Positions 20,161 to 64,000 of a stretch of DNA of 64,000 nt are shown in pieces. The position numbers were made by a program, and so were the translations under genes. How positions within the stretch are numbered: position 1 is the first letter of the stretch; each line of letters starts with the position of its first letter. This stretch comes from Escherichia phage vB_EcoM-Ro111lw. The stretch lies in the sequence record MH571750.1. One strand, 5' to 3'. The notes beneath the pieces were generated by a model, which saw nothing but the letters and a program-made list of their open reading frames with translations, did no database searches and was not told the origin of the DNA.

Positions 20161-20460
20161 TTAATCTGCCAGCCTTAAATTAAAATTAACACCAAATTTT
20201 TCGCATACTTCCAACATATACTCAAGGGAGACATTACCAGTGAGGTGGATTATGTTGGATACGCGAGCCTGAGAGATACCACAAATTTTAGCAACTTGCT
20301 CTTGAGAAAGACCTCTGGATTTAATCTCTCTCTTAAAACGATGTGCAACGAAGTCTCTCATTTCGTCTACATCCATTGGACAAATATAACTCTCCATTTC
20401 AGCCTCTCTGTCAGCCTCCCAATCATCTTGTGGAGCATAAGGGTCAAAAGTCTCATTCAT
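20161..20460 (-). CDS. HTH (XRE-family-like) DNA-binding protein; start moved to ATG (MNETF...)
   Basis: C-terminal helix-turn-helix LSQEQVAKICGISQARVSNIIHL; ORF-track start is a TTG, in-frame ATG at 20460. Confidence 0.6.
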   Translation of the reverse strand: MNETFDPYAPQDDWEADREAEMESYICPMDVDEMRDFVAHRFKREIKSRGLSQEQVAKICGISQARVSNIIHLTGNVSLEYMLEVCEKFGVNFNLRLAD

Positions 20461-24337: not shown

Positions 24338-24398
24338 AAGCCCTCCTATATAAGATATAGTATAAGGTACTCTTCCATGAGCACCTTGTCAATACTAA

Positions 24399-27098
24399 TT
24401 AGTGTACTTCAAGCCAGCTTTTACCAACCTTACCAGTACCTGTTACAAGTGTTTCTTTCTTAAGACCTAAGTTCTTAGAAGCTTGTCCATAATACCAGTC
24501 AGTAACTGCTTTCACTTCTGCCGTCATACTTTCTGGACATTCCCAGCTTGTTTCATCGTGATATGCGCAGAGCAAACGAGCACCAATAGCTGGTTTACGA
24601 CCATTTAACTTCATCAAACCTTCGTCAATCATACGACGACAAGCAAGGTTAATTGCCTCATTTTGAATCTGACTTTCCGAACCCATAAGCAAATAATTCA
24701 ATAACTTATGTGGAGATTTACACCACAACCAAGCTCCAGCAACCTTTACGAAGCCCCCTTTAGAGATTGCAGCAGTCTTACCAAACACCTCTTCAAGTGC
24801 CTTTTTAGTCGCTTTGTAGTCAGCTTCCAAGTCATCCAGCAGCTTCTTAATTTTAGGCAAACGAATAAAGTAAGTCTGTTTGGTCAGTGCACCTTCCTGA
24901 GTAGTTGCAGCTTTAATCGTCTTAGCAAACTTCTCATCACCTGCACCGAACAGCAGTGCATAGATACCATTCTTAGCTTTCTTACGACCCTTGCTAATCT
25001 CATGGAGAAGGTTCTCATCCTGAGTAGCTCGACAAGTCAAGATATCCTGCTCATCATTCAAGCTAAAGTAAATACTGTTCAGTGTGTGTGCATCAGTCCC
25101 TGAATAGACAACGTACAGGTCATTCTCAGAGTCATAGCGAAGGTACTTATCAATCTCTGGGTTGAGGTACTCATCAAAGTGTTTGCAGTAATAGCGTCCA
25201 TCCTCTTGACGAATAAACTCAATCTCTTCTTTACCTTGCGTTACCGCTTTGGTGAAGTCTTTGTCACCCATAAAGTTACAAAGGAGAACTAGCTGGGCTG
25301 AGTTCATGTCTACAGAGACAACGTTAGTACCTTCCTCACAAATCCACACTGCCCTCATTGGTTCCCCATAGACAGCAGCACCAGACGGTACGTTTACAAT
25401 ACCATATTGTGTCATACGTCCAGTTGAAGTACCAAATACCATTGCACCAGCACTAAGGCGACCATCAGGACGAATCTGGTTTAGCCAACCTTTTTCATCA
25501 TCCTTTGAGTTCTCAATGGTTCTGCGTCGGTGCATCAAAGTATAGTACTTAGCAATCTTCTGTCCAAGCTCACCTTCAATCGTATCATAAGAAGATTCAG
25601 TAAGTTTTGGTGAAGTACGGATTAAACAAGGCTCAAGCAAATCTGTGTACTTCTTAACAGACCAGTTATGCTCAATGTACTGGACACCTTCATGTTCAAC
25701 ATAACTCAAGCCACACCGTTCAACCATCTCCTGCCACTTAGGATGCTTGGTAATCATCTTTTTGTTGTCTTTGAAACGACAAACCTTAACAGGACGACCA
25801 TCTGAGTCTTTCTTGTAGTTCCAGTCATCTGGAATCCAACCAACTGATTTCAAGTAATCTTTAACAACTGCTACCTGAGTCATACGAGAAACTTCGAACT
25901 CAATTGGTGTATATGGTGCATCAATCAAACCTGTGTAGCGACTTGACTCAAGTCCAAAGTGGTTAACAACATGGCTGTTATAGTACTTCACAGTCTTAAC
26001 TGTTTTTACTGGCTTCCAGTCTTTGCATTTCTTACCAATCTTTGCATTCAACTCATTGCAAATTGCACGAGCATCCTTCATTGCTACAAAACCTTCCTTG
26101 TACTCTTCACCAGTTACAGAGTTGGTTGGCGTATAGCAATTTCTCTTTTCAATGTTAAAAATCTTTGTAGTTGGCTTACCAAATGGTTTGATTTCATAAG
26201 TCTGCATCTCACCATTACGTACCTGCTGACGATACTTTGTCTTAGGGTACTTGGTAATCCTCTTCAGTCCATCTGCATGACCAAATGTTTCAACATACTC
26301 ATTCCAAGCCTTTGCAAACTCTTCACCAGTTACTTTACCTTTGGTCTTAATAGTTGGTGGTAGATGTGGTTCAACCTCTGAAGCAAGCTCATTAGTCAAC
26401 TTGTCAAGTTCCTTTACATGGAACTCCATAAGTTCTTTATCAGCTTTCCAACCATTGATAGCTTGCTGGCTCATCCAGAAAGATGTCTCTTTAGCTCGCA
26501 TGTAGGTTTCATAAGTGTCTATGCCACACTTCTTAAGCTTGAGATACTCGTTATCAAGTGCCCGTTTAGTTTTGGCGTTAATACGGATATCTTCTACAAC
26601 ACGAGTGAAGATTTCTGCATTCCACACACCCCAATGTTCAATCTCTGGCTTACGAACACCAACACGAGCACCCCATGCAGCCAAACCATGAGCACCTTTA
26701 TAACCCTTTGGAGTTGGTCTATCCATCCACTGAACACGAGACTGGATAAGAGAATCCTGAAAGAAATTACTCCACGGCTTACATTTTGGATTATCAAAGT
26801 TCCATAAATCCGGTGCAATGTGATTGAAGACCCACCAGTCATAACCGAGGCCGTTATGGATACAAAGTCGTTTTGCCTTTAACGCAAACTCAACACCTTC
26901 ACGTAAACCACCCTTAATGTACTTAGTGTACTTGTGACCGAGGATAGGCTCATCTGTAAAGACCCATACAGGTGGCTCTTCATCGTCAGATTTATAGTCT
27001 GCAAAGGCCATTACGTGAACTTTAGTGAACTCAAGGAGTAAACCATCAGTTTCTGTATCACCAACCAAATGTAAGTTTTTAAAATCTACGTTTTCCAT
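24399..27098 (-). CDS. DNA polymerase, family A with 3'-5' exonuclease domain (T7 gp5-like); start set to MENVDF ATG
   Basis: Exo I motif DTETDGL near N-terminus; YHDE motif near C-terminus; about 900 aa; AGAGGGAG RBS before the ATG at 27098. Confidence 0.85.
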   Translation of the reverse strand: MENVDFKNLHLVGDTETDGLLLEFTKVHVMAFADYKSDDEEPPVWVFTDEPILGHKYTKYIKGGLREGVEFALKAKRLCIHNGLGYDWWVFNHIAPDLWNFDNPKCKPWSNFFQDSLIQSRVQWMDRPTPKGYKGAHGLAAWGARVGVRKPEIEHWGVWNAEIFTRVVEDIRINAKTKRALDNEYLKLKKCGIDTYETYMRAKETSFWMSQQAINGWKADKELMEFHVKELDKLTNELASEVEPHLPPTIKTKGKVTGEEFAKAWNEYVETFGHADGLKRITKYPKTKYRQQVRNGEMQTYEIKPFGKPTTKIFNIEKRNCYTPTNSVTGEEYKEGFVAMKDARAICNELNAKIGKKCKDWKPVKTVKTVKYYNSHVVNHFGLESSRYTGLIDAPYTPIEFEVSRMTQVAVVKDYLKSVGWIPDDWNYKKDSDGRPVKVCRFKDNKKMITKHPKWQEMVERCGLSYVEHEGVQYIEHNWSVKKYTDLLEPCLIRTSPKLTESSYDTIEGELGQKIAKYYTLMHRRRTIENSKDDEKGWLNQIRPDGRLSAGAMVFGTSTGRMTQYGIVNVPSGAAVYGEPMRAVWICEEGTNVVSVDMNSAQLVLLCNFMGDKDFTKAVTQGKEEIEFIRQEDGRYYCKHFDEYLNPEIDKYLRYDSENDLYVVYSGTDAHTLNSIYFSLNDEQDILTCRATQDENLLHEISKGRKKAKNGIYALLFGAGDEKFAKTIKAATTQEGALTKQTYFIRLPKIKKLLDDLEADYKATKKALEEVFGKTAAISKGGFVKVAGAWLWCKSPHKLLNYLLMGSESQIQNEAINLACRRMIDEGLMKLNGRKPAIGARLLCAYHDETSWECPESMTAEVKAVTDWYYGQASKNLGLKKETLVTGTGKVGKSWLEVH

Positions 27099-27270
27099 TT
27101 TTACTCCCTCTAAAATCATTAACCTCATACATTACTGCAAAAAATTATAAAAAGCAAGTTGACAATGTACTTGACAAGGTGTTAATCTTTGCGAAGTGGG
27201 TTTTTACTTAAAAGGTTACTTAACAGTTTAACTATACAGATACTTTAAAACTCTTAAAAGATTATTTAAT

Positions 27271-27312
27271 AGCTTTTAAAAAGCTTTAAAGTATAACGTA
27301 TAGAATACGTTA
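27271..27312. promoter_or_regulatory. Two palindromes (AGCTTTT-A-AAAAGCT and AACGTAT-AGA-ATACGTT) in the divergent intergenic region; candidate operators
   Basis: Perfect 7-1-7 and 7-3-7 inverted repeats 45-85 bp upstream of the 27356 start, in AT-rich region between divergent operons. Confidence 0.4.
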
Positions 27313-27355
27313 AGATAAAAGATTAAAACTTAATAGTTACTTAAAAGAGGCTTAC

Positions 27356-27778
27356 ATGCAGAAAATGTTTGTTCACCCAGACATAGCTGACTTTGTTAGA
27401 GCTTTGCAGAAGTTGGAAGAACTTGACATTGCTGCTCAACGGGAATATGCTCACCATCACAGGAGAATGGTTGATATACAACATGAAATAGAGTTGTCTG
27501 AAAACTATGAAGATGACTTAAAATGCTCTGTATTTGAGCATATGAAAGATGTTGCTACAGCGAGACGTAAAGCTAAAGACACAGTTGCTTTACTAGATTC
27601 TCTTAAAAAGAGGTTGCAAAGTGGTACAGACCTGTGTAATCTAGCGTCACTGATTAACGATGTTGAAACTTCTTGGGATAGGCACTATTATCCACGTTCT
27701 GAAAAGACACTTGACTTTTCTTCATCTGAAAACTTAAAATGTTCTAGAAAGAAACTTAACCAACTGAGAGAGAAATAA
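27356..27778 (+). CDS. Hypothetical protein
   Basis: 140 aa, RBS AAAGAGG, first gene of plus-strand operon. Confidence 0.55.
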   Translation: MQKMFVHPDIADFVRALQKLEELDIAAQREYAHHHRRMVDIQHEIELSENYEDDLKCSVFEHMKDVATARRKAKDTVALLDSLKKRLQSGTDLCNLASLINDVETSWDRHYYPRSEKTLDFSSSENLKCSRKKLNQLREK

Positions 27779-27779
27779 T

Positions 27780-28592
27780 ATGAATACTACTGTAGACCAG
27801 ATGCTTGAAGAGAAAGGTGTTGATGAAGCATTCTTAATCAATGCCGTAGAAAGCATGGCTATGATTCTTCGTGGTAATAACTACACAGAACAGTTTATGC
27901 CTGCAAGCTATAACTTGCCTGAAGACAAGTCTGATAACAGTGCTTTTGCAGAACAGGTCAACATGATGCTTTGCGACAAAACACTTGCTCTGGCATCTAT
28001 TGCGGTTGGTGTTGATGCTCTTGCAGAGTTTATTTTTTATGAGATGCAGAGAAATGACTATATCAGGATGTCAGACGAAGATAAGGAACTGTTGCTGACT
28101 AAGGACACTGATTTCATTATTGATACGCTTATCTCATCAACGAGTGCTGTTATGGCTGTTCTTGAGAAGCGCATGGAAGAGAAACTTTCACGATATGAAA
28201 AACTTGATTGGGGCGTAGAAGAACTAAACCCACGAATCAAGGAGATTATCCAGCAAACTAAAGAGTCTTTGGAAGAAGCTGTTGAGAATGACTCTGTAGC
28301 TGATGTAGAACCACTACAGGTGAAGGTTGCTCTGATGATTCCAGCTATTTCTACAATGATGAATATCGTTGCACTAATCCAACTTTCTCAGATGTTGGGT
28401 GTAACCATTGAGTTCGTTGAGGAGATGACTGGTGGTGTCAGTATGCAAGCAATCAATGATGTTTTGGTAAACATTGGTGCTTCAATCATTGAAGAGAAGC
28501 TACGTATCAACTTCGGTGATGATTTTGTGAAGCAAATCTCAGCTATGGCTGAAAAAGAGCACTCACAAATTACCAGTGACCAACTGCACTAA
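27780..28592 (+). CDS. Hypothetical protein
   Basis: 270 aa, coupled to upstream ORF. Confidence 0.55.
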   Translation: MNTTVDQMLEEKGVDEAFLINAVESMAMILRGNNYTEQFMPASYNLPEDKSDNSAFAEQVNMMLCDKTLALASIAVGVDALAEFIFYEMQRNDYIRMSDEDKELLLTKDTDFIIDTLISSTSAVMAVLEKRMEEKLSRYEKLDWGVEELNPRIKEIIQQTKESLEEAVENDSVADVEPLQVKVALMIPAISTMMNIVALIQLSQMLGVTIEFVEEMTGGVSMQAINDVLVNIGASIIEEKLRINFGDDFVKQISAMAEKEHSQITSDQLH

Positions 28593-42434: not shown

Positions 42435-42442
42435 AACTTGAC

Positions 42443-42482
42443 AAGGTGACGTGGGTCTTGATAGGCTTACATCACCTTTTTT
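42443..42482 (+). terminator. Terminator after nrdD
   Basis: AAGGTGA...TCACCTT stem with long loop, followed by TTTTTT. Confidence 0.45.
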
Positions 42483-58975: not shown

Positions 58976-59301
58976 TGACTGGTATCACTGCAATCATTGC
59001 CATTTTCGCGCTATATAAGGCATATAAAGCCTATAATCTAGCAAATAAGGCAATCACACAGCAGGTTAGCAATAGCCTTGTAGAAAGCTTTCTAGGGCGT
59101 CTCAGTGATGAGCAAATAAAGCGGTTAGAAATGAGCTTCAGATTCAAAGCGAAAACCTATCAGATAAGTGACATCTTCAAGGATGATTTCCAGTTAGTCG
59201 ATGATTATAATTCTCTGATAAATGCTTTAAATATCAGTGACTTAAAAGACTACTACGCTGTAATTGTTCAAGAGTTGAGCAAACGAAAACAAAACTGTTG
59301 A
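58969..59301 (+). CDS. Hypothetical membrane-anchored protein
   Basis: N-terminal hydrophobic helix (MLMTGITAIIAIFALY); RBS AAGAGGAAA. Confidence 0.5.
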   Translation: MLMTGITAIIAIFALYKAYKAYNLANKAITQQVSNSLVESFLGRLSDEQIKRLEMSFRFKAKTYQISDIFKDDFQLVDDYNSLINALNISDLKDYYAVIVQELSKRKQNC

Positions 59302-59390
59302 CACTGATTTTTAGATAGATTAAATTACACATCAACGGGGAGGGAACAACCTTCCCACTAAATAAAGTCCTTAAACTAGGAGATTCTAAA
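59298..59390 (+). promoter_or_regulatory. Type-A cassette 2: TTGACA-N17-TAAATT promoter plus conserved hairpin leader
   Basis: Consensus -35; leader ACACATCAACGGGGAGGGAACAACCTTCCCACTAAATAAAGTCCTTAAACTAGGAGATTCTAAA before ATG 59391. Confidence 0.65.
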
Positions 59391-59663
59391 ATGTATACTA
59401 CTAACAATGGCCTCACTTTGAACGTCACACTACGTCACTATGTAGATGGTGTCATGCACTTTGAAGATTTACAAGCTGAACAACATATCTTAGATTGGCA
59501 AGTCGCAGGACTCCAAAAAACTGCTACGGGATACGGTAAAAAGATTCCAACTAGTTGGAAAGTTCACTATGAAGGACGTTTGCGCAGAATTTATCAAGAT
59601 GTGCAAAGCAATAGCGCATCGAGTTACATTATAGTAAAAGGTGAAAAACTGCATTTAGTATAA
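59391..59663 (+). CDS. Hypothetical small protein (cassette-associated)
   Basis: 90 aa. Confidence 0.5.
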   Translation: MYTTNNGLTLNVTLRHYVDGVMHFEDLQAEQHILDWQVAGLQKTATGYGKKIPTSWKVHYEGRLRRIYQDVQSNSASSYIIVKGEKLHLV

Positions 59664-59668
59664 AGTAC

Positions 59669-59748
59669 TTTACATGGGGTTTAAAAGTTGGTATCTTAAG
59701 CCCCAGATAAAGAGCTTTACCCCTAAATCCTAAATTGGAGATTCAAAA
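59669..59748 (+). promoter_or_regulatory. Type-B cassette 4 (TTTACA + GGGGTTTAA...TTAAGCCCC hairpin + leader)
   Basis: Stem retains pairing through a G-U wobble; conserved leader to ATG 59749. Confidence 0.55.
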
Positions 59749-60153
59749 ATGGCTATTAATAATCGTGAGTTATCAATCTTAAAAGCACGTTTAACCGTTA
59801 ATCGAATCAATGTTATCACGTCATCAGCACCAGACGAGACATTACACAACATTATCGGGAAGATTCAAGGTGTTATCTTAGACGTTGAGAATGTAAAAAA
59901 CTCATTAGCAGACGTTGCAGCAGGTGTTACACTAGACGGCGCACAATATGAAATGATTGACATGTTAGGCAAATCAAAGGTTATGAATAAAGAGTTAGAC
60001 TTAAAAATGTTTCGATTTGCCGTGAAAGTATGGCTATCTGTCGAGTATGATGCTAATTTTGCAATTGCTGATTTCTTTGCCACTTGGTTGCAACGTAACT
60101 TAACAAATCATGATTTTCGTGATATCTGTGATGCAATTTACGCAGAACTTTAA
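59749..60153 (+). CDS. Hypothetical protein (cassette-associated)
   Basis: 134 aa. Confidence 0.55.
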   Translation: MAINNRELSILKARLTVNRINVITSSAPDETLHNIIGKIQGVILDVENVKNSLADVAAGVTLDGAQYEMIDMLGKSKVMNKELDLKMFRFAVKVWLSVEYDANFAIADFFATWLQRNLTNHDFRDICDAIYAEL

Positions 60154-60161
60154 AAATTTTA

Positions 60162-60253
60162 TTGACACTGATTTTTAGATAGACTAAATTACACATCAAC
60201 GGGGAGGGAACAACCTTCCCACTAAATAAAGTCCTTAAACTAGGAGATTCAAA
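60162..60253 (+). promoter_or_regulatory. Type-A cassette 3: TTGACA-N17-TAAATT promoter plus conserved leader
   Basis: Almost identical over about 90 bp to cassette at 59298. Confidence 0.65.
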
Positions 60254-60796
60254 ATGAAATGCTTTCACGGTACTACTCAAGAAAACTTTATCAACCTGAT
60301 TAATAACGGTGATAAACCATCAGGTGTATGGAATTGTTCGGATATGGACGGCAATTTTTACGTGTACCCAGAAAATAAACTCTATGGTGATGATGAGGAA
60401 GAGATAGCATCGGAAGGTATCCAGCAAGCTCTAGGAAATGCCACTATCACGGCAGCTTTTCAGATGAAAACTCAAAATATTGTTATCTTAGAACTTGACA
60501 TTCCAGAGGATGAGCTAAATGATGATTATTCTTGTGATAACATGTCAAATATAGCAAGCTTTACAGAGTACTTTGATGTAAATTGGATTAAAAAGGTCTA
60601 TACAACAGAGTTCAACGCTATGTATTCACCTTTTTGTCTCCCTTCACTGGATAACCCAAATTTGAATTATCTTGATGAAACATTGGAGCTACTTGCTAAA
60701 AGTATCCAACAATCCGACAGTATTCAGGTTTTTTGTGACATCATGGATACACTGACAGAAAACATTGTAGAGAGTGATTTAAAGGTCTTTTTCTAA
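60254..60796 (+). CDS. Hypothetical acidic protein (cassette-associated)
   Basis: 180 aa. Confidence 0.55.
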   Translation: MKCFHGTTQENFINLINNGDKPSGVWNCSDMDGNFYVYPENKLYGDDEEEIASEGIQQALGNATITAAFQMKTQNIVILELDIPEDELNDDYSCDNMSNIASFTEYFDVNWIKKVYTTEFNAMYSPFCLPSLDNPNLNYLDETLELLAKSIQQSDSIQVFCDIMDTLTENIVESDLKVFF

Positions 60797-60862
60797 AAAC
60801 CTATACATTCACCTTATAAACACTGATTAACCCCTTACAGGGGCTTTTAGAGGGCTTAAATC

Positions 60863-61096
60863 ATGCTTACAACCATTTATCTCATCCTTTCTATCTGTAA
60901 CGGTCATTCATGTGACTTTAAAGGGCTTGAAGAGTTTACAGGAAGTAAAGAAAATGCTATTCAGGTTTGCCAGATAGCAAGACAAGACTATCCCGCCAGT
61001 GACGACATTCAATGCTACTTTAAGACAGAAGATGAAGACGGCATCTATTTTGACAGCGTTGACGGTCAATATGAAATTATCATTGAAAAAGACTAG
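60863..61096 (+). CDS. Hypothetical small protein
   Basis: 77 aa; RBS AGAGGG; preceded by CCCCT-tac-AGGGG hairpin. Confidence 0.45.
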   Translation: MLTTIYLILSICNGHSCDFKGLEEFTGSKENAIQVCQIARQDYPASDDIQCYFKTEDEDGIYFDSVDGQYEIIIEKD

Positions 61097-61187
61097 ACAA
61101 GCCTGATAAAAGTCTGTAAATTACACATCAACGGGGAGGGAATGACCTTCCCCACTAAATAAAGTCCTTAAACTAGGAGATTCAAAA
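61094..61187 (+). promoter_or_regulatory. Type-A cassette 4: TAGACA-N17-TAAATT promoter plus conserved leader
   Basis: Leader identical to cassette 1 hairpin version (GGGAATGACCTTCCCC). Confidence 0.6.
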
Positions 61188-61529
61188 ATGGCTTATGTAA
61201 CCGTAATTACCGATAAAGCTGGCTCATCTTGGTCAACTCAGGTTAGTGATAAGATGTCGCCTATGCAGTGCCTAAAATACTTTGAGCAGTGGAACAAAGG
61301 CGAGGATGTAAGCCCCTTTCAAGTGATGCAAATCATCCATACAGATAACGAAGGGAATAAAACGACCTTGAACAGTGAATACTACGCAAGCCGTTTTGAA
61401 ACGAGAAGTAAAACAATGAAGCTTTTACGTGAATCCGGCTATTCTCATATTGCCGCGCTAATCTGGGATGACCTGCTAAAAAGCCAGCGTATCAGCTATG
61501 TAAAACCTGAAAAAATATTCATCAGTTAA
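61188..61529 (+). CDS. Hypothetical protein (cassette-associated)
   Basis: 113 aa. Confidence 0.55.
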   Translation: MAYVTVITDKAGSSWSTQVSDKMSPMQCLKYFEQWNKGEDVSPFQVMQIIHTDNEGNKTTLNSEYYASRFETRSKTMKLLRESGYSHIAALIWDDLLKSQRISYVKPEKIFIS

Positions 61530-61561
61530 TCAATAACTTACAAAAAACTTTTAAAAAAGTG

Positions 61562-61590
61562 TTGACAATACCCCTTGACATTGGTAACTT
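61562..61590 (+). promoter_or_regulatory. Possible additional promoter TTGACA-N17-TAACTT in a 220-bp non-coding spacer (tandem TTGACA hexamers)
   Basis: Two TTGACA hexamers 13 bp apart; no ORF directly downstream. Confidence 0.3.
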
Positions 61591-61658
61591 TGTTCGAGGG
61601 GGTTTATCTAAAAGGGATTCACTTAATAGATTCTTTATAGATAAACTTAAAAAATTGC

Positions 61659-61750
61659 TTGCAAAGGCAAATCAAAACAAGTAAATTACTAATCAACGGG
61701 AAGGGATTAACCTTCCCACTAAGTAAAGTCCTTAAACTAGGAGATTCAAA
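61659..61750 (+). promoter_or_regulatory. Type-A cassette 5: TTGCAA-N17-TAAATT promoter plus leader (hairpin variant GGGA-ttaacct-TCCC)
   Basis: Conserved TAAATTACTAATCAACGGG...ACTAAGTAAAGTCCTTAAACTAGGAGATTCAAA before ATG 61751. Confidence 0.6.
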
Positions 61751-62281
61751 ATGAACAAGTTTCAAGCTATCAACTATATTCGCTCATCCAACGTTATGAC
61801 TAAGCCCGTTAAAGATACCTTCGAATTTCGTTGCAACGGTGTACACTTTGCAACTATCACTAAATCAGAAAACGGGGCTTATTATATACATCGTCGTAAT
61901 GCCTCTACTGTTGTAGTCTCTCACTTTATGCAAGCTGTAGCAGAACTGTTACCGCTATTCTTAGGTATTTACTTAGATGAGTGCAAAAACGTTCGCAACC
62001 ACGTTAAAGACCTTTTAAATGGTTATAAAATGGCTTATGAACGTTCTATCAAGAATCTTAACAAGTTCTATAAAGCCCCTGAAAATACTGTTTCAATGGC
62101 TTACAGTGTAAGCGGTGAGTTGGTTAGCCTCTTTGAAGTGGAAGAAATCGCGTTGCATGACTTACGCCCTAGCGGTTACTCTAAGACACTAGAGGAAGGT
62201 TTAACGTTCAATATCAAGAACTTAGAAAAAACTTTAAAAGATATTGAAAAAGATATTGACGAGACAATCAAAAATCTGTAA
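61751..62281 (+). CDS. Hypothetical protein (cassette-associated)
   Basis: 176 aa. Confidence 0.55.
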   Translation: MNKFQAINYIRSSNVMTKPVKDTFEFRCNGVHFATITKSENGAYYIHRRNASTVVVSHFMQAVAELLPLFLGIYLDECKNVRNHVKDLLNGYKMAYERSIKNLNKFYKAPENTVSMAYSVSGELVSLFEVEEIALHDLRPSGYSKTLEEGLTFNIKNLEKTLKDIEKDIDETIKNL

Positions 62282-62343
62282 ATTGTCAATCAACGGGGGA
62301 TAACCTCCCCCACTAAACAAAATCCTAAACTGGAGTTATCAAG
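62256..62343 (+). promoter_or_regulatory. Type-A cassette 6: TTGACG-N17-TAAATT promoter (overlapping upstream stop) plus leader with compensated hairpin GGGGGA-taacc-TCCCCC
   Basis: Stem sequence differs from other copies but pairing is kept. Confidence 0.6.
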
Positions 62344-62607
62344 ATGGAAAACGTAGAATTAACCACACTTTTACAAATTGCAACCGACAAAGAAGATGTA
62401 GCATTATTCCACCGTATCGAAAGCGATTTGTTCAATGGTGAAATCATTAAAGAATCTTACGAAGTTGTCGGATTCAAAGATGGTAAAGCATTTGGCTTTT
62501 TTGACCTCGACAAAAGCAAAGCGGTTACAATGTACGATGTTCTATCTTGTGAAATTCTGACAAAATACAACGAAAAAAGGCTTGCAACCTACGCCAATAT
62601 GCAGTAA
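62344..62607 (+). CDS. Hypothetical small protein (cassette-associated)
   Basis: 87 aa. Confidence 0.5.
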   Translation: MENVELTTLLQIATDKEDVALFHRIESDLFNGEIIKESYEVVGFKDGKAFGFFDLDKSKAVTMYDVLSCEILTKYNEKRLATYANMQ

Positions 62608-62674
62608 ATTACTAATCAACGGGGAGGGAATGACCTTCCCACTAAACAAAGTCCTAAACTGGAGAATCTAAATT
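62582..62674 (+). promoter_or_regulatory. Type-A cassette 7: TTGCAA-N17-TAAATT promoter plus conserved leader
   Basis: -10 overlaps upstream stop codon; leader with GGGAATGACCTTCCC hairpin before ATG 62675. Confidence 0.6.
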
Positions 62675-62923
62675 ATGTCAACTATCCGCGTAACTGTTAA
62701 TGCTTATGGCTGCCACAAACTTGATGCAAAATTCGATATCGGTGGAACAGATAACACCTTTGACCTTATCAAAATGCTGATTCAGCAGGTGATACCAGAT
62801 TATAACCCTACTGATGACTTCTGGAAAGATGCCGTAAAAGAAGCCATAAACGAGGAATCTCACTACCATTATTGGGGTGACTTGATTGTCTCTCTATACT
62901 ACAGCAAACAAGGCTACAACTAA
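62675..62923 (+). CDS. Hypothetical small protein (last ORF before the repeat region)
   Basis: 82 aa. Confidence 0.5.
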   Translation: MSTIRVTVNAYGCHKLDAKFDIGGTDNTFDLIKMLIQQVIPDYNPTDDFWKDAVKEAINEESHYHYWGDLIVSLYYSKQGYN

Positions 62924-62985: not shown

Positions 62986-63129
62986 CGTCTATCGAATCCT
63001 TATACAATCCCTTTCCCTTTCCTTTCTAGAATCTTATCAGACCTTAAAAAGCAATAACTCTATAGTCTACTCTATAACCTCTTATCAAATCAACTTAAAT
63101 ATAAGCCAATAACCCCAGAAAGGGGATGG

Positions 63130-63560
63130 CCCATTAAAACGCTCTATAAAGCTCTATAACAGCCTTATCAACCTAACTTAAGCAATCATATTAACCCACT
63201 CTAAAAAGCCCTTTATAGAGCTTCCCAGAGCCTTAAAAGAATCTTATAAGGGTGAAAGCTTATAGGCTGGCTAGTATCTTGTGAATAACTAAACAATCCC
63301 CTTGATAGTCACTAAAAAGCATGTTATAGGGGCTATAAAGTTACTTCAAAGTAACGTAAAAAAGGCTATAAAGTTACGTAAATGCTAGCCCCCTTAACAT
63401 TTTCTTAACAATTTCTTAACAAACCCTACATAGTTATGCTTTTAAGGCACTTGTTAGAGACTTGTTAGCCCCTTGTTAAATCTCTGTTAAGACCACGTAA
63501 AAGCCTTGTAAGAGTCTTTGGCATAGCCTTTAAAGCTCCTATAAAGCCCTATAAAGAGGT
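63130..63560. repeat. (G)CTATAAAG repeat family and palindromes in ORF-free region
   Basis: GCTCTATAAAGCTCTATAAC, inverted CTTTATAGAGC, GGCTATAAAGTTAC twice, CCTATAAAG twice; palindrome GTTACTTCAAAGTAAC and TTACGTAA. Confidence 0.6.
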
Positions 63561-64000
63561 GTCTGTATAGTTGGGGTGTAGATACTAGGAAGAGGTTTAA
63601 AAGAGCTTACAAGGAGCTATAGAGAGCTTTTAAGAGGTATGTTTAAGAGTTCACTAAGAAAGGAAAGGGAACGATAAGGAAGAGATAGTGACCATGTTAA
63701 TAGCTTGTTAAAAAGATTAAACACTTGTTAGAAACTTGTTAATTATCTAATTGGTATTGTTACCAATCCCTAACAAAATAACTCTTTAAAATTAACTTGT
63801 TAGCTCTTGTTAGTCATCTGTTAAGCCTCTGTAAAGACTATTCAGCACTTGTTAGAAAACTGTTAAGCCCTTGTTAGTTCTGTTAAGAAACTGTTAAGAC
63901 CTTTGAAGAGTTGTTAAGAAGATGTGAGAACTGTTAAGAGATTGTTAAGGATATTTTAAAATTTTGCAAAGTACTTGTAAGGGAGCTGTTAAGGGCTACC
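63404..64000. repeat. Array of about 20-25 CTTGTTAG / CTGTTAAG octamer repeats, many phased at 10-12 bp; continues to window end
   Basis: Direct copies at about 63450, 63461, 63472, 63484, 63705, 63724, 63735, 63796, 63806, 63818, 63848, 63860, 63870, 63880, 63891, 63910, 63931, 63942, 63986, plus inverted TTAACAA copies at 63404-63423; no ORF of 60 aa or more on either strand. Confidence 0.7.

What the first reader, a model, noticed from the sequence alone, without database searches (positions are those of the whole stretch)
27129..27355. Divergent AT-rich control region with two palindromic operator candidates
The 227-bp gap between the DNA polymerase gene (minus) and the plus-strand operon has tandem TTGACA hexamers (27159, 27171), repeated CTTAAAAG words, and two perfect palindromes (AGCTTTT-A-AAAAGCT at about 27271-27285; AACGTAT-AGA-ATACGTT at about 27296-27312) just upstream of the 27356 start. 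These are plausible binding sites for a dimeric regulator such as the HTH protein at 20161..20460. The motif CTTGACAAGGTG recurs at 42436.
Basis: seen in the sequence. Interest (0 to 1): 0.4.

Follow-up and report, generated by a model that had tools for sequence, protein, structure and literature searches.

The report
Felix O1 divergent promoters and periodic leader
This is the shared control region of the replication genes of a Felix O1-type phage: two back-to-back host-type promoters, then a conserved 160-base leader built of 11-base repeats, and the two flagged palindromes lie in that leader, not at either promoter.

Summary
The sequence features are real, with coordinates off by one in two places. 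The window is a Felixounavirus, and the gap is the gene 96 (DNA polymerase) / gene 97 intergenic region.

Comparison of five genera supports two conserved sigma-70 promoters:
- P97 (+): TTGACA 27159, 18-nt spacer, TGt-TAATCT 27183-88.
- P96 (-): TTGCTT 27157>27152, N17, TAATGT 27134>27129.

The two -35 hexamers lie 1 bp apart. The second TTGACA sits in the P97 spacer and forms the dyad TTGnCAA-N5-TTGnCAA. That dyad recurs exactly only at the gene 40/41 promoter of Felix O1, which makes it a better operator candidate than the palindromes.

Both palindromes lie about 75-120 nt downstream of the predicted start, inside a ~160-nt leader made of ~13 C-Tn-Am-G units with an 11-nt period.
- Palindrome 1 is not conserved.
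- Palindrome 2 is kept through two compensatory changes, and its 3' arm also covaries with a distal unit.

The promoter-leader cassette is repeated at 61.5 kb and at gene 40/41. Its repeat vocabulary also fills the 1.6-kb terminal-repeat region.

There is weak support for HTH binding to the region and none for the palindromes. What the leader does is inferred, not shown.

The parts
27096..27098 (-). Probable true start codon of the DNA polymerase gene (gene 96). Its Shine-Dalgarno GAGGGAG lies at 27104-27110.
   Evidence: Sequence. SUSP1 and Mordin annotate this start. The upstream ATGs at 27119 and 27128 are out of frame in SUSP1.
27129..27157 (-). P96, the leftward sigma-70-type promoter. 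-35 TTGCTT at 27157>27152, 17-nt spacer, -10 TAATGT at 27134>27129. Predicted start near 27122, giving a ~24-nt leader to the ATG at 27098.
   Evidence: TTGCTT is invariant, the -10 reads TA(A/G)(T/G)GT, and the spacer is variable in sequence but fixed at 17 nt in six Felix/Susp/Moogle sequences. Equivalent promoters exist in YenP778 (TTGTGT-N17-TAGACT) and Arno162 (TTGACC-N17-CATACT).
27139..27158 (+). A-rich tract (AAAAAATTATAAAAAGCAAG) directly upstream of the P97 -35, resembling an UP element. It overlaps P96.
   Evidence: AAAAAGCAAG is invariant in Felix/Susp/Moogle. The same TTAAAAAAG-N3-TTGACAA arrangement occurs at other strong promoters of the phage.
27159..27188 (+). P97, the rightward promoter. 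-35 TTGACA at 27159-64, 18-nt spacer, TGt at 27180-82, -10 TAATCT at 27183-88. Predicted start near 27195.
   Evidence: All five genera keep a perfect TTGACA, a 17-18-nt spacer and a TAnnnT -10. A TGn extension precedes the -10 in all but Kolesnikvirus. The same site is annotated as a promoter in phage AYO145A.
27159..27177 (.). Dyad TTGACAA-TGTAC-TTGACAA (TTGnCAA-N5-TTGnCAA), made by the second TTGACA (27171-76). Candidate operator over the -35 and spacer.
   Evidence: Half-sites are conserved while the central 5 nt vary in Felix/Susp/Moogle. Exact copies occur only here and at the Felix O1 gene 40/41 promoter. No -10 lies 16-18 nt after the second hexamer (sequence).
27193..27205 (+). Conserved G-rich initial transcribed sequence GAAGTGGGTTTTT.
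   Evidence: AGTGGGTTTT is invariant in 11 aligned sequences. The paralogous cassette at 61.5 kb has CGAGGGGGTTT.
27204..27347 (+). Leader array of ~13 same-strand units of about 11 nt, form C-Tn-Am-G (CTTAAAAG, CTTAACAG, CTATACAG, CTTTAAAG, CTTAATAG and others). The last unit runs into the Shine-Dalgarno sequence.
   Evidence: Motif discovery gives CTTAAAAG. Unit enrichment is 7 against 1.1 expected. The AG period is 11.0 nt, and the spectrum summed over four genera gives P<0.002. All genera keep units and leader length.
27271..27285 (.). Palindrome 1 (AGCTTTT-A-AAAAGCT). It is one T4A5 unit plus its flanks and is probably incidental.
   Evidence: A27280>G in AYO145A and SUSP1. It is shifted to CTTTTAAAAG in the Sf13-like phages. 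Hairpin -3.5 kcal/mol, z -0.27.
27294..27312 (+). Palindrome 2 (TAACGTAT-AGA-ATACGTTA), a conserved weak hairpin or dyad in the leader, 44 nt upstream of the ATG.
   Evidence: Two compensatory double changes, A-T>T-A and C-G>T-A. Hairpin -5.8 kcal/mol, z -3.4. Unique in the window.
27219..27224 (+). CTTAAC of unit 2, an alternative partner of GTTAAG (27309-27314), the 3' end of palindrome 2.
   Evidence: The same two 3' columns covary with this segment: CTTAAC/GTTAAG, CTTTAC/GTAAAG and CTTTAT/ATAAAG. The helix is 100% paired in 11 sequences.
27345..27358 (+). Shine-Dalgarno AAGAGG (27345-50) and ATG (27356-58) of gene 97, the first gene of the rightward replication operon.
   Evidence: The same CTTA(A/T)AAGAGGC(A/T)TAC..ATG ending occurs at gene 41 of Felix O1.

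Best explanation
The region is the common control region of the two replication-gene transcription units of a Felix O1-type phage. Host sigma-70 RNA polymerase starts leftward at P96, towards the DNA polymerase gene. It starts rightward at P97, towards gene 97, gene 98, dNMP kinase, primase-helicase and the genes beyond. The two -35 hexamers sit back to back, 1 bp apart.

P97 is a composite promoter. It has an A-tract, TTGACA, a second TTGACAA 12 bp downstream that forms a TTGnCAA-N5-TTGnCAA dyad over the -35 and spacer, and a TGn-extended -10. The dyad is the most likely site for a clade-specific repressor or modulator, possibly the XRE-type HTH protein.

Transcription from P97 first copies a ~160-nt, 79% A+T leader of ~13 eleven-nt C-Tn-Am-G units that ends in the ribosome-binding site of gene 97. 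Palindrome 1 is a by-product of a T4A5 unit. Palindrome 2 is a selected pairing element whose 3' arm can pair either with its neighbour or with unit 2, 85 nt upstream.

I infer that the leader acts in cis on its own transcript during or after transcription. It could affect elongation through the many internal terminators, message processing or stability, or translation of gene 97. I do not think it acts as an operator pair.

Shown by comparison: the promoters, the unit architecture, the covariation and the paralogous cassettes. Inferred: the start sites, the transcript-level action and any protein partner.
For: - Identity and context: the window is a Felixounavirus, with DNA polymerase on the minus strand and a replication operon on the plus strand.
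- The Felix O1 genome paper assumes divergent early promoters between genes 96 and 97 but found none (PMC3185647).
- P97 is conserved in five genera and annotated in AYO145A.
- P96 keeps its hexamers while the spacer varies in sequence.
- Leader units, length and 11-nt period are conserved in all genera.
- The leader is as conserved as the polymerase coding sequence and more conserved than genes 97 and 98.
- Palindrome 2 and its distal partner show three-way covariation in two separate events.
- The whole cassette (A-tract, double TTGACA, -10, G-rich start, first unit CT(T)AAAAGG at about +11 to +14, units, shared ribosome-site ending) recurs at window 61532-61672 (nhmmer E 1e-20). It also recurs at the Felix O1 gene 40/41 promoter (E 4e-5). 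In every copy it lies downstream of the promoter and points the same way as transcription.
- No terminator, Rfam family, DnaA box or IHF site lies in the region.
Against: - No transcription start data exist for this phage in the searched literature.
- The P97 -10 (TAATCT) matches only 3 of 6 positions and the P96 -35 only TTG. The consensus scanner called neither.
- The leader's low folding energy (z -1.7 to -2.8 against dinucleotide shuffles) disappears when only the order of units is permuted. A specific long fold is therefore not supported thermodynamically.
- Masking of the ribosome-binding site is not significant.
- There are only two covariation events. Mismatches in the helices are mostly C-A on the plus strand. 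Template-switch correction of quasi-palindromes could mimic compensatory change without selection.
- The same unit vocabulary and 11-nt period fill the 1.6-kb terminal-repeat region. This points at least as much to a DNA-level reader as to an RNA-level one.
Confidence: 0.6

Rival explanations
1. DNA-level array. The 11-bp C-Tn-Am-G units are iteron-like sites for a phage or host DNA-binding protein that coats the leader DNA. The same protein would coat the similar arrays in the terminal-repeat region and at gene 40/41. It would act as a roadblock or autoregulatory complex, or mark a replication origin lying between the polymerase and primase-helicase genes.
For: - The leader shares the 11.0-nt period with the terminal-repeat region.
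- Leader 7- and 8-mers are shared with the phage's own terminal-repeat region far above expectation, in a genus-specific way for Felix.
- The units are quasi-palindromic (CTT..AAG) and occur in both orientations in the terminal-repeat region.
- RNA fold energy is explained by the units alone.
- The tract is AT-rich and follows a promoter. From memory, the T7 and T4 origins have the same promoter-then-AT-rich layout.
- The cumulative GC-skew minimum lies at about 27.2 kb.
Against: - At least three cassettes exist plus a 1.6-kb array, so a single origin is unlikely.
- No DnaA or IHF sites are present.
- The skew switch is confounded by the switch of transcribed strand.
- In the leaders, units always lie downstream of the promoter and point with transcription, and they end exactly at the ribosome-binding site.
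- No candidate binding protein is conserved across the subfamily: the HTH protein is absent from three lineages that have the arrays.
- Genes 97 and 98 have no recognisable DNA-binding domain.
Confidence: 0.25
2. The two perfect palindromes at 27271-27285 and 27294-27312 are operators bound by a dimeric regulator such as the HTH protein encoded at 20161-20460. Binding would control the divergent promoters.
For: - The palindromes exist.
- Palindrome 2 is conserved as a dyad in exactly the three genera that encode the HTH protein.
- The protein has a clear XRE/Cro-type HTH domain (PF01381, E 5e-10).
Against: - The palindromes lie 77-118 nt downstream of the predicted P97 start and about 150-190 bp upstream of the P96 start. 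They do not overlap either promoter.
- The two palindromes are unrelated in sequence, and neither has another copy in 64 kb.
- Palindrome 1 is not conserved and is expected by chance.
- The half-site sequence of palindrome 2 changes between genera, and the changes are mirrored in a distal direct copy.
- A better dyad, TTGnCAA-N5-TTGnCAA, overlaps the -35 and recurs at a second operon head.
Confidence: 0.08
3. Nothing beyond the promoters. The AT-rich repeats and palindromes would be neutral filler that grew by slippage or duplication of ~11-nt units, with no function of their own.
For: - The palindromes are near chance expectation.
- Arrays of quasi-palindromic units automatically give inverted repeats and low fold energies.
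- TRF finds no clean tandem array.
Against: - The leader is 82-83% identical between genera whose neighbouring genes are 59-77% identical, and at least 99% identical within the genus.
- Leader length, unit form and period are kept in five genera despite sequence turnover.
- Three-way covariation is present.
- The cassette is reused at other operon heads.
Confidence: 0.07

Closest known systems
Strong host-type early promoters of virulent coliphages (the T5 and T4 early class: A-rich upstream tract, consensus -35, extended -10)
   Same: Perfect TTGACA, an A-tract at about -40 to -55, a TGn-TAnnnT -10, recognition by unmodified host RNA polymerase, and a position at the head of early or replication genes.
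   Different: Two promoters sit back to back with their -35 hexamers 1 bp apart. A second TTGACAA lies inside the spacer. A conserved G-rich start is followed by a long repeat-built leader. The comparison with T5 and T4 rests on general knowledge and was not tested here.
Cro/CI-type operators of lambdoid phages (a dyad overlapping -35 or -10, bound by an HTH dimer)
   Same: TTGnCAA-N5-TTGnCAA is a 19-bp dyad with conserved half-sites and a variable centre. It overlaps the -35 and spacer, is present at two operon-head promoters, and occurs in the clade that encodes an XRE-type HTH protein.
   Different: The half-site is itself the -35 consensus, so conservation of the first half needs no repressor. 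Binding is untested. A similar tandem TTGACA occurs in phiEa104, which lacks a detectable homologue. The phage is virulent.
Cis-acting leaders at the heads of long phage operons (lambda nut, HK022 put, RNase III sites in T7 early leaders)
   Same: A conserved transcribed element lies between a promoter and the first gene of a long operon that holds many internal terminators. It contains a small hairpin and is reused at several operon heads.
   Different: There is no sequence or Rfam similarity. The hairpin is weak and AU-rich. The leader is built of 11-nt repeats, which none of these are. No N- or Q-like protein was identified.
Iteron arrays bound cooperatively by small proteins (the 11-bp iterons of parC with ParR in plasmid R1; phi29 p6 nucleoprotein arrays)
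   Same: Direct repeats of about 11 bp lie next to or within a promoter region. Related arrays lie near the genome ends. The units are quasi-palindromic.
   Different: The units are degenerate and of variable length (7-14 nt). No cognate protein is known. The arrays are transcribed and co-oriented with transcription. The resemblance is recalled from memory and is a lead, not a test.
Transcription-activated phage origins (the T7 primary origin: promoters plus an AT-rich tract; T4 oriF and oriG: promoter plus unwinding element)
   Same: A promoter is followed by a ~150-bp AT-rich tract, located within the replication gene cluster.
   Different: The sequence is far more conserved than an unwinding element would need. 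At least three paralogous cassettes exist. There is no experimental origin mapping.

Membership tests
Sigma-70 promoter (P97, plus strand) | -35 hexamer close to TTGACA | tested here: met
   TTGACA at 27159-64 is invariant in all five genera.
Sigma-70 promoter (P97, plus strand) | Spacer of 17 +/- 1 bp and a -10 with A at position 2 and T at position 6 | tested here: met
   The spacer is 18 nt and the -10 is TAATCT with TGt just upstream. Relatives have TAGTCT, TAATGT, TAGGCT and TACATT at 17-18 nt. Only 3 of 6 positions match the consensus, so the scanner missed it.
Sigma-70 promoter (P97 and P96) | A transcript 5' end about 7 nt downstream of the -10 | not testable with these tools
   No start-site data were found. 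Felix O1 RT-PCR shows only that ORFs 96, 101 and 105 are transcribed within 5 min (PMC3185647).
Sigma-70 promoter (P96, minus strand) | Hexamers conserved while the spacer sequence drifts at constant length | tested here: met
   TTGCTT-N17-TA(A/G)(T/G)GT in six sequences with variable spacers. The -35 is weak, matching only TTG.
   The palindromes lie at +77 to +118 of P97 and more than 150 bp from P96 (sequence).
   Half-sites change (AACGTAT, TACGTAT, TATGTAT). Palindrome 1 is broken in relatives. There are no other copies in the window.
HTH-dimer operator (TTGnCAA-N5-TTGnCAA dyad) | Dyad over the promoter, conserved half-sites with a variable centre, recurrence, co-occurrence with the regulator gene | tested here: inconclusive
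   The geometry and the recurrence at the gene 40/41 promoter are met. The HTH gene is limited to the same three genera. However, phiEa104 has a similar tandem without a detectable homologue, and binding is untested.
Intrinsic terminator or attenuator | G+C-rich stem followed by a T run | tested here: not met
   None lies between 27099 and 27355. The palindrome 2 stem is AU-rich with no U tract.
Known RNA family (Rfam 15) | Covariance-model match | tested here: not met
   Only chance-level hits, E of at least 0.49.
Structured cis-regulatory RNA | Compensatory base changes in predicted helices | tested here: inconclusive
   Two pairs have double changes in each of two alternative helices. Shuffle and slide controls are favourable. 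There are only two events, and fold energy is no better than unit-permuted controls.
Iteron-type replication origin | Three or more direct repeats near helical phasing plus an AT-rich tract | tested here: met
   ~13 units, period 11.0 nt, 79% A+T.
Iteron-type replication origin | Host-factor boxes (DnaA, IHF), a unique locus, and origin activity | tested here: not met
   No DnaA or IHF sites. Paralogous cassettes exist at 61.5 kb and at gene 40/41, and arrays fill the terminal-repeat region. Origin activity is not testable here.
Rho utilisation site | C-rich, G-poor transcript | tested here: not met
   Leader C/G is 0.74, with C at 9%.

The most novel reading that the evidence does not exclude
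The 11-nt C-Tn-Am-G units are a subfamily-wide cis-element code of the Ounavirinae, read by one still unidentified factor. They form the leaders at operon heads (genes 97 and 41, and the 61.5-kb early cassette). They also form about 1.6 kb of arrays that contain and flank the direct terminal repeat, oriented with incoming transcription on both sides. This would couple control of the major transcription units to the genome ends. The factor could build a cooperative nucleoprotein or ribonucleoprotein filament, or act as an antitermination or roadblock device.
Probability: 0.25. Interest if true: 0.65.

Novelty: new variant of a known kind. Interest (0 to 1): 0.4.

Why it matters
Felix O1 is a classical Salmonella typing and biocontrol phage, yet its transcription programme is still unknown. 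Its genome paper states that no promoters could be found in the 96/97 gap, and that it is not known how RNA polymerase passes the many internal terminators or how timing is set.

The comparison made here gives concrete, testable elements:
- two promoters with predicted start sites;
- a dyad over the -35 that is shared by the two main rightward operon heads;
- a conserved repeat-built leader cassette.

If the unit arrays prove to be read by a dedicated factor, that would reveal a regulatory or architectural system common to a whole subfamily of therapeutic phages. It would also give parts for engineering them, namely strong host-recognised promoters and leader cassettes. If not, the region is simply an ordinary, well-conserved early promoter region.

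Tried and rejected
- Tandem Repeats Finder found nothing, because the units are too degenerate.
- The Rfam scan gave only chance hits.
- The consensus promoter scan missed both promoters and suggested only weak sites. The minus-strand TATAAT at 27149>27144 is not conserved in SUSP1 or Mordin, so I rejected it as the polymerase promoter.
- The second TTGACA as a second promoter: no -10 lies 16-18 nt downstream in any of the three cassettes (sequence).
- Long-range masking of the ribosome-binding site by the 5' end of the leader is strong only in YenP778 and Arno162. It is not significant in partition-function tests. The pairing predicted in Felix is not conserved in SUSP1 or Mordin.
- A specific long hairpin: the fold energy is no better than with permuted unit order.
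- Rho site: C/G is below 1.
- DnaA and IHF boxes: none.
- CTTAAAAG as a promoter motif elsewhere: the other copies lie mostly inside genes in unrelated contexts.
- Searching for more covariation states in metagenomes gave no new variants, only the same three states.
- Function of genes 97 and 98: no Pfam, NCBIfam or PDB match. A single-sequence AlphaFold model of gp97 is a low-confidence helical hairpin (pLDDT 63), so no fold search was run.
- Literature searches found no transcription-start or RNA-seq data for Felix O1-like phages.
Full report
**What the window is.** The 1.5 kb around the finding is 97-98% identical to some 240 Felix O1-like phages. The 341 nt centred on the gap are 100% identical to Salmonella phage SPT-1 and at least 99% identical in 172 of 258 records. 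The gap lies between gene 96 (family A DNA polymerase, minus strand) and gene 97. Gene 97 opens a plus-strand operon holding gene 98, dNMP kinase, primase-helicase, an exonuclease and further genes. The Felix O1 genome paper assumes that early transcription starts from divergent promoters between genes 96 and 97. It says no promoter-like sequence could be found there, and that it is unknown how the many internal terminators are passed or how timing is controlled (PMC3185647). The AYO145A record does annotate two low-scoring promoters in the gap.

**Checking the observation.** Every feature exists.
- TTGACA lies at 27159 and 27171.
- CTTAAAAG lies at 27207, 27253 and 27340.
- Palindrome 1 is at 27271-27285.
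- Palindrome 2 is at 27295-27311, extendable to 8-3-8 at 27294-27312.
- CTTGACAAGGTG recurs at 42437.

The polymerase most likely starts at the ATG at 27098. It has a strong GAGGGAG, SUSP1 and Mordin annotate that start, and the upstream ATGs are out of frame in SUSP1. The gap is therefore 257 bp. By shuffling, two such palindromes in 74% A+T DNA are not unusual (P about 0.1). The repeat words are unusual (7 units against 1.1 expected).

**The promoters.** I aligned the gap from Felixounavirus, Suspvirus, Mooglevirus, Kolesnikvirus, Yersinia phage P778 and Pectobacterium phage Arno162.
- *Rightward (P97).* All have a perfect TTGACA, a 17-18-nt spacer and a TAnnnT -10. A TGn extension precedes the -10 in all but Kolesnikvirus. 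In the window these are 27159-64, TGt at 27180-82 and TAATCT at 27183-88, giving a predicted start near 27195. An A-tract lies just upstream.
- *Leftward (P96).* Six Felix/Susp/Moogle sequences keep TTGCTT (27157>27152) and TA(A/G)(T/G)GT (27134>27129). The 17-nt spacer between them drifts in sequence. The distant genera have equivalent promoters.

The two -35 hexamers are 1 bp apart and the predicted starts about 73 bp apart. The perfect minus-strand TATAAT at 27149>27144 is not conserved, so I rejected it.

**The second TTGACA.** It lies in the P97 spacer, and no -10 follows it at a usable distance. Together with the first it forms TTGACAA-N5-TTGACAA. Because TTGnCAA is its own reverse complement, this is a 19-bp dyad. 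Its half-sites are conserved and its central 5 nt vary among Felix, Susp and Moogle phages.
- Exact copies of the dyad occur only here and at the gene 40/41 promoter of Felix O1 (TTGACAAAGCACTTGACAAGGTA). A 13-spaced variant lies at 61562/61575.
It is not found in the Erwinia, Pectobacterium or Yersinia relatives, whose P97 has a single TTGACA.
- This is one clade-level coincidence, and phiEa104 has a similar tandem elsewhere. It is therefore a lead rather than a result, but it makes the dyad a better operator candidate than the palindromes.
That form also occurs at the promoters at 42438 and 24392 (minus strand).

**The leader.** From about 27204 to 27347 the plus strand can be read as ~13 units of about 11 nt, each a C, a short T run, an A run and a G.
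- Motif discovery over the leaders of seven phages returns CTTAAAAG.
- Every genus has such units on the same strand and a leader of 145-165 nt, although the sequences are otherwise diverged.
- The AG dinucleotide has an 11.0-nt period in the window (P about 0.006). Each genus peaks between 11.0 and 11.75 nt, and the spectrum summed over four genera peaks at 11.0 (P<0.002).
- The leader is 82-83% identical to SUSP1 and Mordin. That equals the polymerase coding sequence (86%) and exceeds gene 97 (66-77%) and gene 98 (59-60%).

**The palindromes.** Both lie inside the leader, at +77 to +118 of P97, and both are unique in the window.
- *Palindrome 1* is one T4A5 unit with its flanks. It is broken by A>G in AYO145A and SUSP1, shifted in the Sf13-like phages, and folds no better than shuffles.
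- *Palindrome 2* is kept in all three genera through two compensatory double changes (A-T>T-A and C-G>T-A). It forms a weak hairpin (-5.8 kcal/mol, z -3.4).
- The same two 3' positions also covary with CTTAAC of unit 2, 85 nt upstream. The three states are CTTAAC/GTTAAG, CTTTAC/GTAAAG and CTTTAT/ATAAAG. The 3' arm thus has two mutually exclusive partners, both supported.
- The second event separates two close Moogle-type sequences that differ at only about 14 of 165 leader positions, so coincidence is unlikely.
- A metagenome scan added no further states.

This pattern fits base pairing better than a fixed protein half-site. Three cautions apply. There are only two events. Helix mismatches are mostly C-A on the plus strand. 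Template-switch repair of quasi-palindromes could produce the local part of the pattern without selection.

**Is there a defined RNA fold?** The leader folds better than dinucleotide shuffles in Felix, YenP778 and Arno162 (z -2.0 to -2.8). Permuting only the order of the units gives equally good folds, so the energy is a property of the quasi-palindromic units. Masking of the ribosome-binding site is strong only in two genera and is not significant overall. No Rfam family, terminator, DnaA box or IHF site is present, and the leader is not C-rich as a Rho site would be.

**The cassette is reused.** A profile of the promoter plus the first units finds two further copies.
- One lies at window 61532-61672 (E 1e-20).
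- The other is the Felix O1 gene 40/41 intergenic region (E 4e-5).

All three copies share the A-tract, the double TTGACA, the -10 and a first unit CT(T)AAAAGG at about +11 to +14, followed by more units. The window copies at 27.2 and 61.5 kb also share a G-rich initial transcribed sequence. The gene 41 copy also has a small palindrome in mid-leader and ends in CTTATAAGAGGCATACCAATG, where gene 97 has CTTAAAAGAGGCTTACATG. The gene 97 and gene 41 copies head the two long rightward transcription units. A unique replication origin is therefore unlikely, and a function tied to starting these transcripts is favoured.

**The link to the genome ends.** The only other place in the window with a comparable unit density is 62,990-64,000. 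This belongs to a 1.6-kb ORF-free stretch between the converging genes 23 and 24 of Felix O1.
- It holds the 581-608-bp direct terminal repeat mapped in Pr103Blw and UAB_Phi87.
- That repeat maps to window 63,388 to about 64,000.
- The stretch shows the same 11.0-nt AG period (P<0.001).
- It shares 7- and 8-mers with the leader far above expectation, in a genus-specific way for Felix.
- phiEa104 has an equivalent 1.4-kb array region.
- Unit orientation flips near the left boundary of the repeat, so that on both sides the units point with incoming transcription.

This is the main argument for a DNA-level or co-transcriptional reader of the units.

**Verdict.** The operator reading of the two palindromes is not supported. 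The most probable operator is the dyad over the P97 -35. The palindromes belong to a conserved, repeat-built transcribed leader whose mode of action remains inferred.

I give about 0.6 to the promoter-plus-cis-acting-leader model. Interest is moderate. The promoters are of an ordinary kind, and one was already annotated in a relative. The periodic leader cassette and its kinship with the terminal-repeat arrays did not appear in the literature I could search.

Noticed in passing
window 62,990-64,000 (runs off the window end); Felix O1 NC_005282 12,306-13,927 = L040 807-2428: A 1.6-kb ORF-free stretch between the converging genes 23 and 24 is one long array of ~11-nt units ending in AG (CCTTAAAAG, CTATAAAG, CTTGTTAG, CTGTTAAG). 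The period is 11.0 nt. It contains the direct terminal repeat, which maps to window 63,388 to about 64,000. Unit orientation and C/G bias flip near the left boundary of the repeat. phiEa104 has an equivalent 1.4-kb region (L102 16,472-17,900).
   Followed up: partly
window 61,532-61,672: A paralogue of the P97 promoter-leader cassette. It has the A-tract, TTGACA at 61562, a second TTGACA at 61575, TGg-TAACTT, CGAGGGGGTTT, then the units TCTAAAAGGG, CACTTAATAG and TTCTTTATAG. It lies upstream of the 176-aa ORF at 61751.
   Followed up: partly
Felix O1 NC_005282 21,489-21,664 (L103 7589-7765), outside the window: The other divergent junction (genes 40/41) carries the same cassette: TTGACAAAGCACTTGACAAGGTATAGGCT, units, a 7-bp palindrome AGATATC-N6-GATATCT, and a ribosome-site ending like that of gene 97. 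The genome paper lists only TTGACA-N15-TATAGG here (P41).
   Followed up: partly
window 27096-27128: The DNA polymerase start codon is annotated inconsistently among records: 27119-equivalent in Felix O1 and AYO145A, 27128 by the longest ORF. The ATG at 27098, with a strong Shine-Dalgarno sequence, is the conserved one. With the predicted P96 start near 27122, the 27128 ATG lies outside the transcript and the 27119 ATG has almost no leader.
   Followed up: yes
window 27780-28592: Gene 98 is widely annotated 'minor tail protein' (PHROG 4251), but it sits in the replication operon. It has no Pfam or PDB match and is not among the virion proteins found by mass spectrometry in Felix O1 (PMC3185647). 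The annotation looks doubtful.
   Followed up: partly
window 42,437-42,448 (+) and 24,382-24,393 (-): The extended -35 form TTGACAAGGTG recurs at two other intergenic promoter-like sites: TTGACA-N18-TAGGCT and TTGACA-N17-TACCTT. Together with P97 and P41 that makes four copies. Among 84 TTGACA sites, such an extension is expected about 0.1 times by chance.
   Followed up: partly
window 59,298-62,700: Repeated cassettes lie in front of several small early ORFs. Each is TTGACAC-N17-TAAATT, then the hairpin CAACGGGGAGGGAAC..CCTTCCC, then TAAACTAGGAGATTCAAAATG. [quoted passage not shown]
   Followed up: no
relatives: L001 6262-6789 (phage dune); L007 486-962 (phiEa104): HNH homing-endonuclease genes are inserted next to the polymerase gene in some relatives. 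In Kolesnikvirus the insertion lies between the polymerase gene and the control region, and a second strong promoter (TTGACT-N18-TGgTATGAT) lies inside the leader close to the gene 97 homologue.
   Followed up: no
public records MG065664 (Campylobacter phage A132) and GU169904 (Staphylococcus phage SA1): Records named for Campylobacter and Staphylococcus phages carry 97-99% identical Felix O1-type sequence. This is probably contamination or a mislabelled or chimeric assembly.
   Followed up: no
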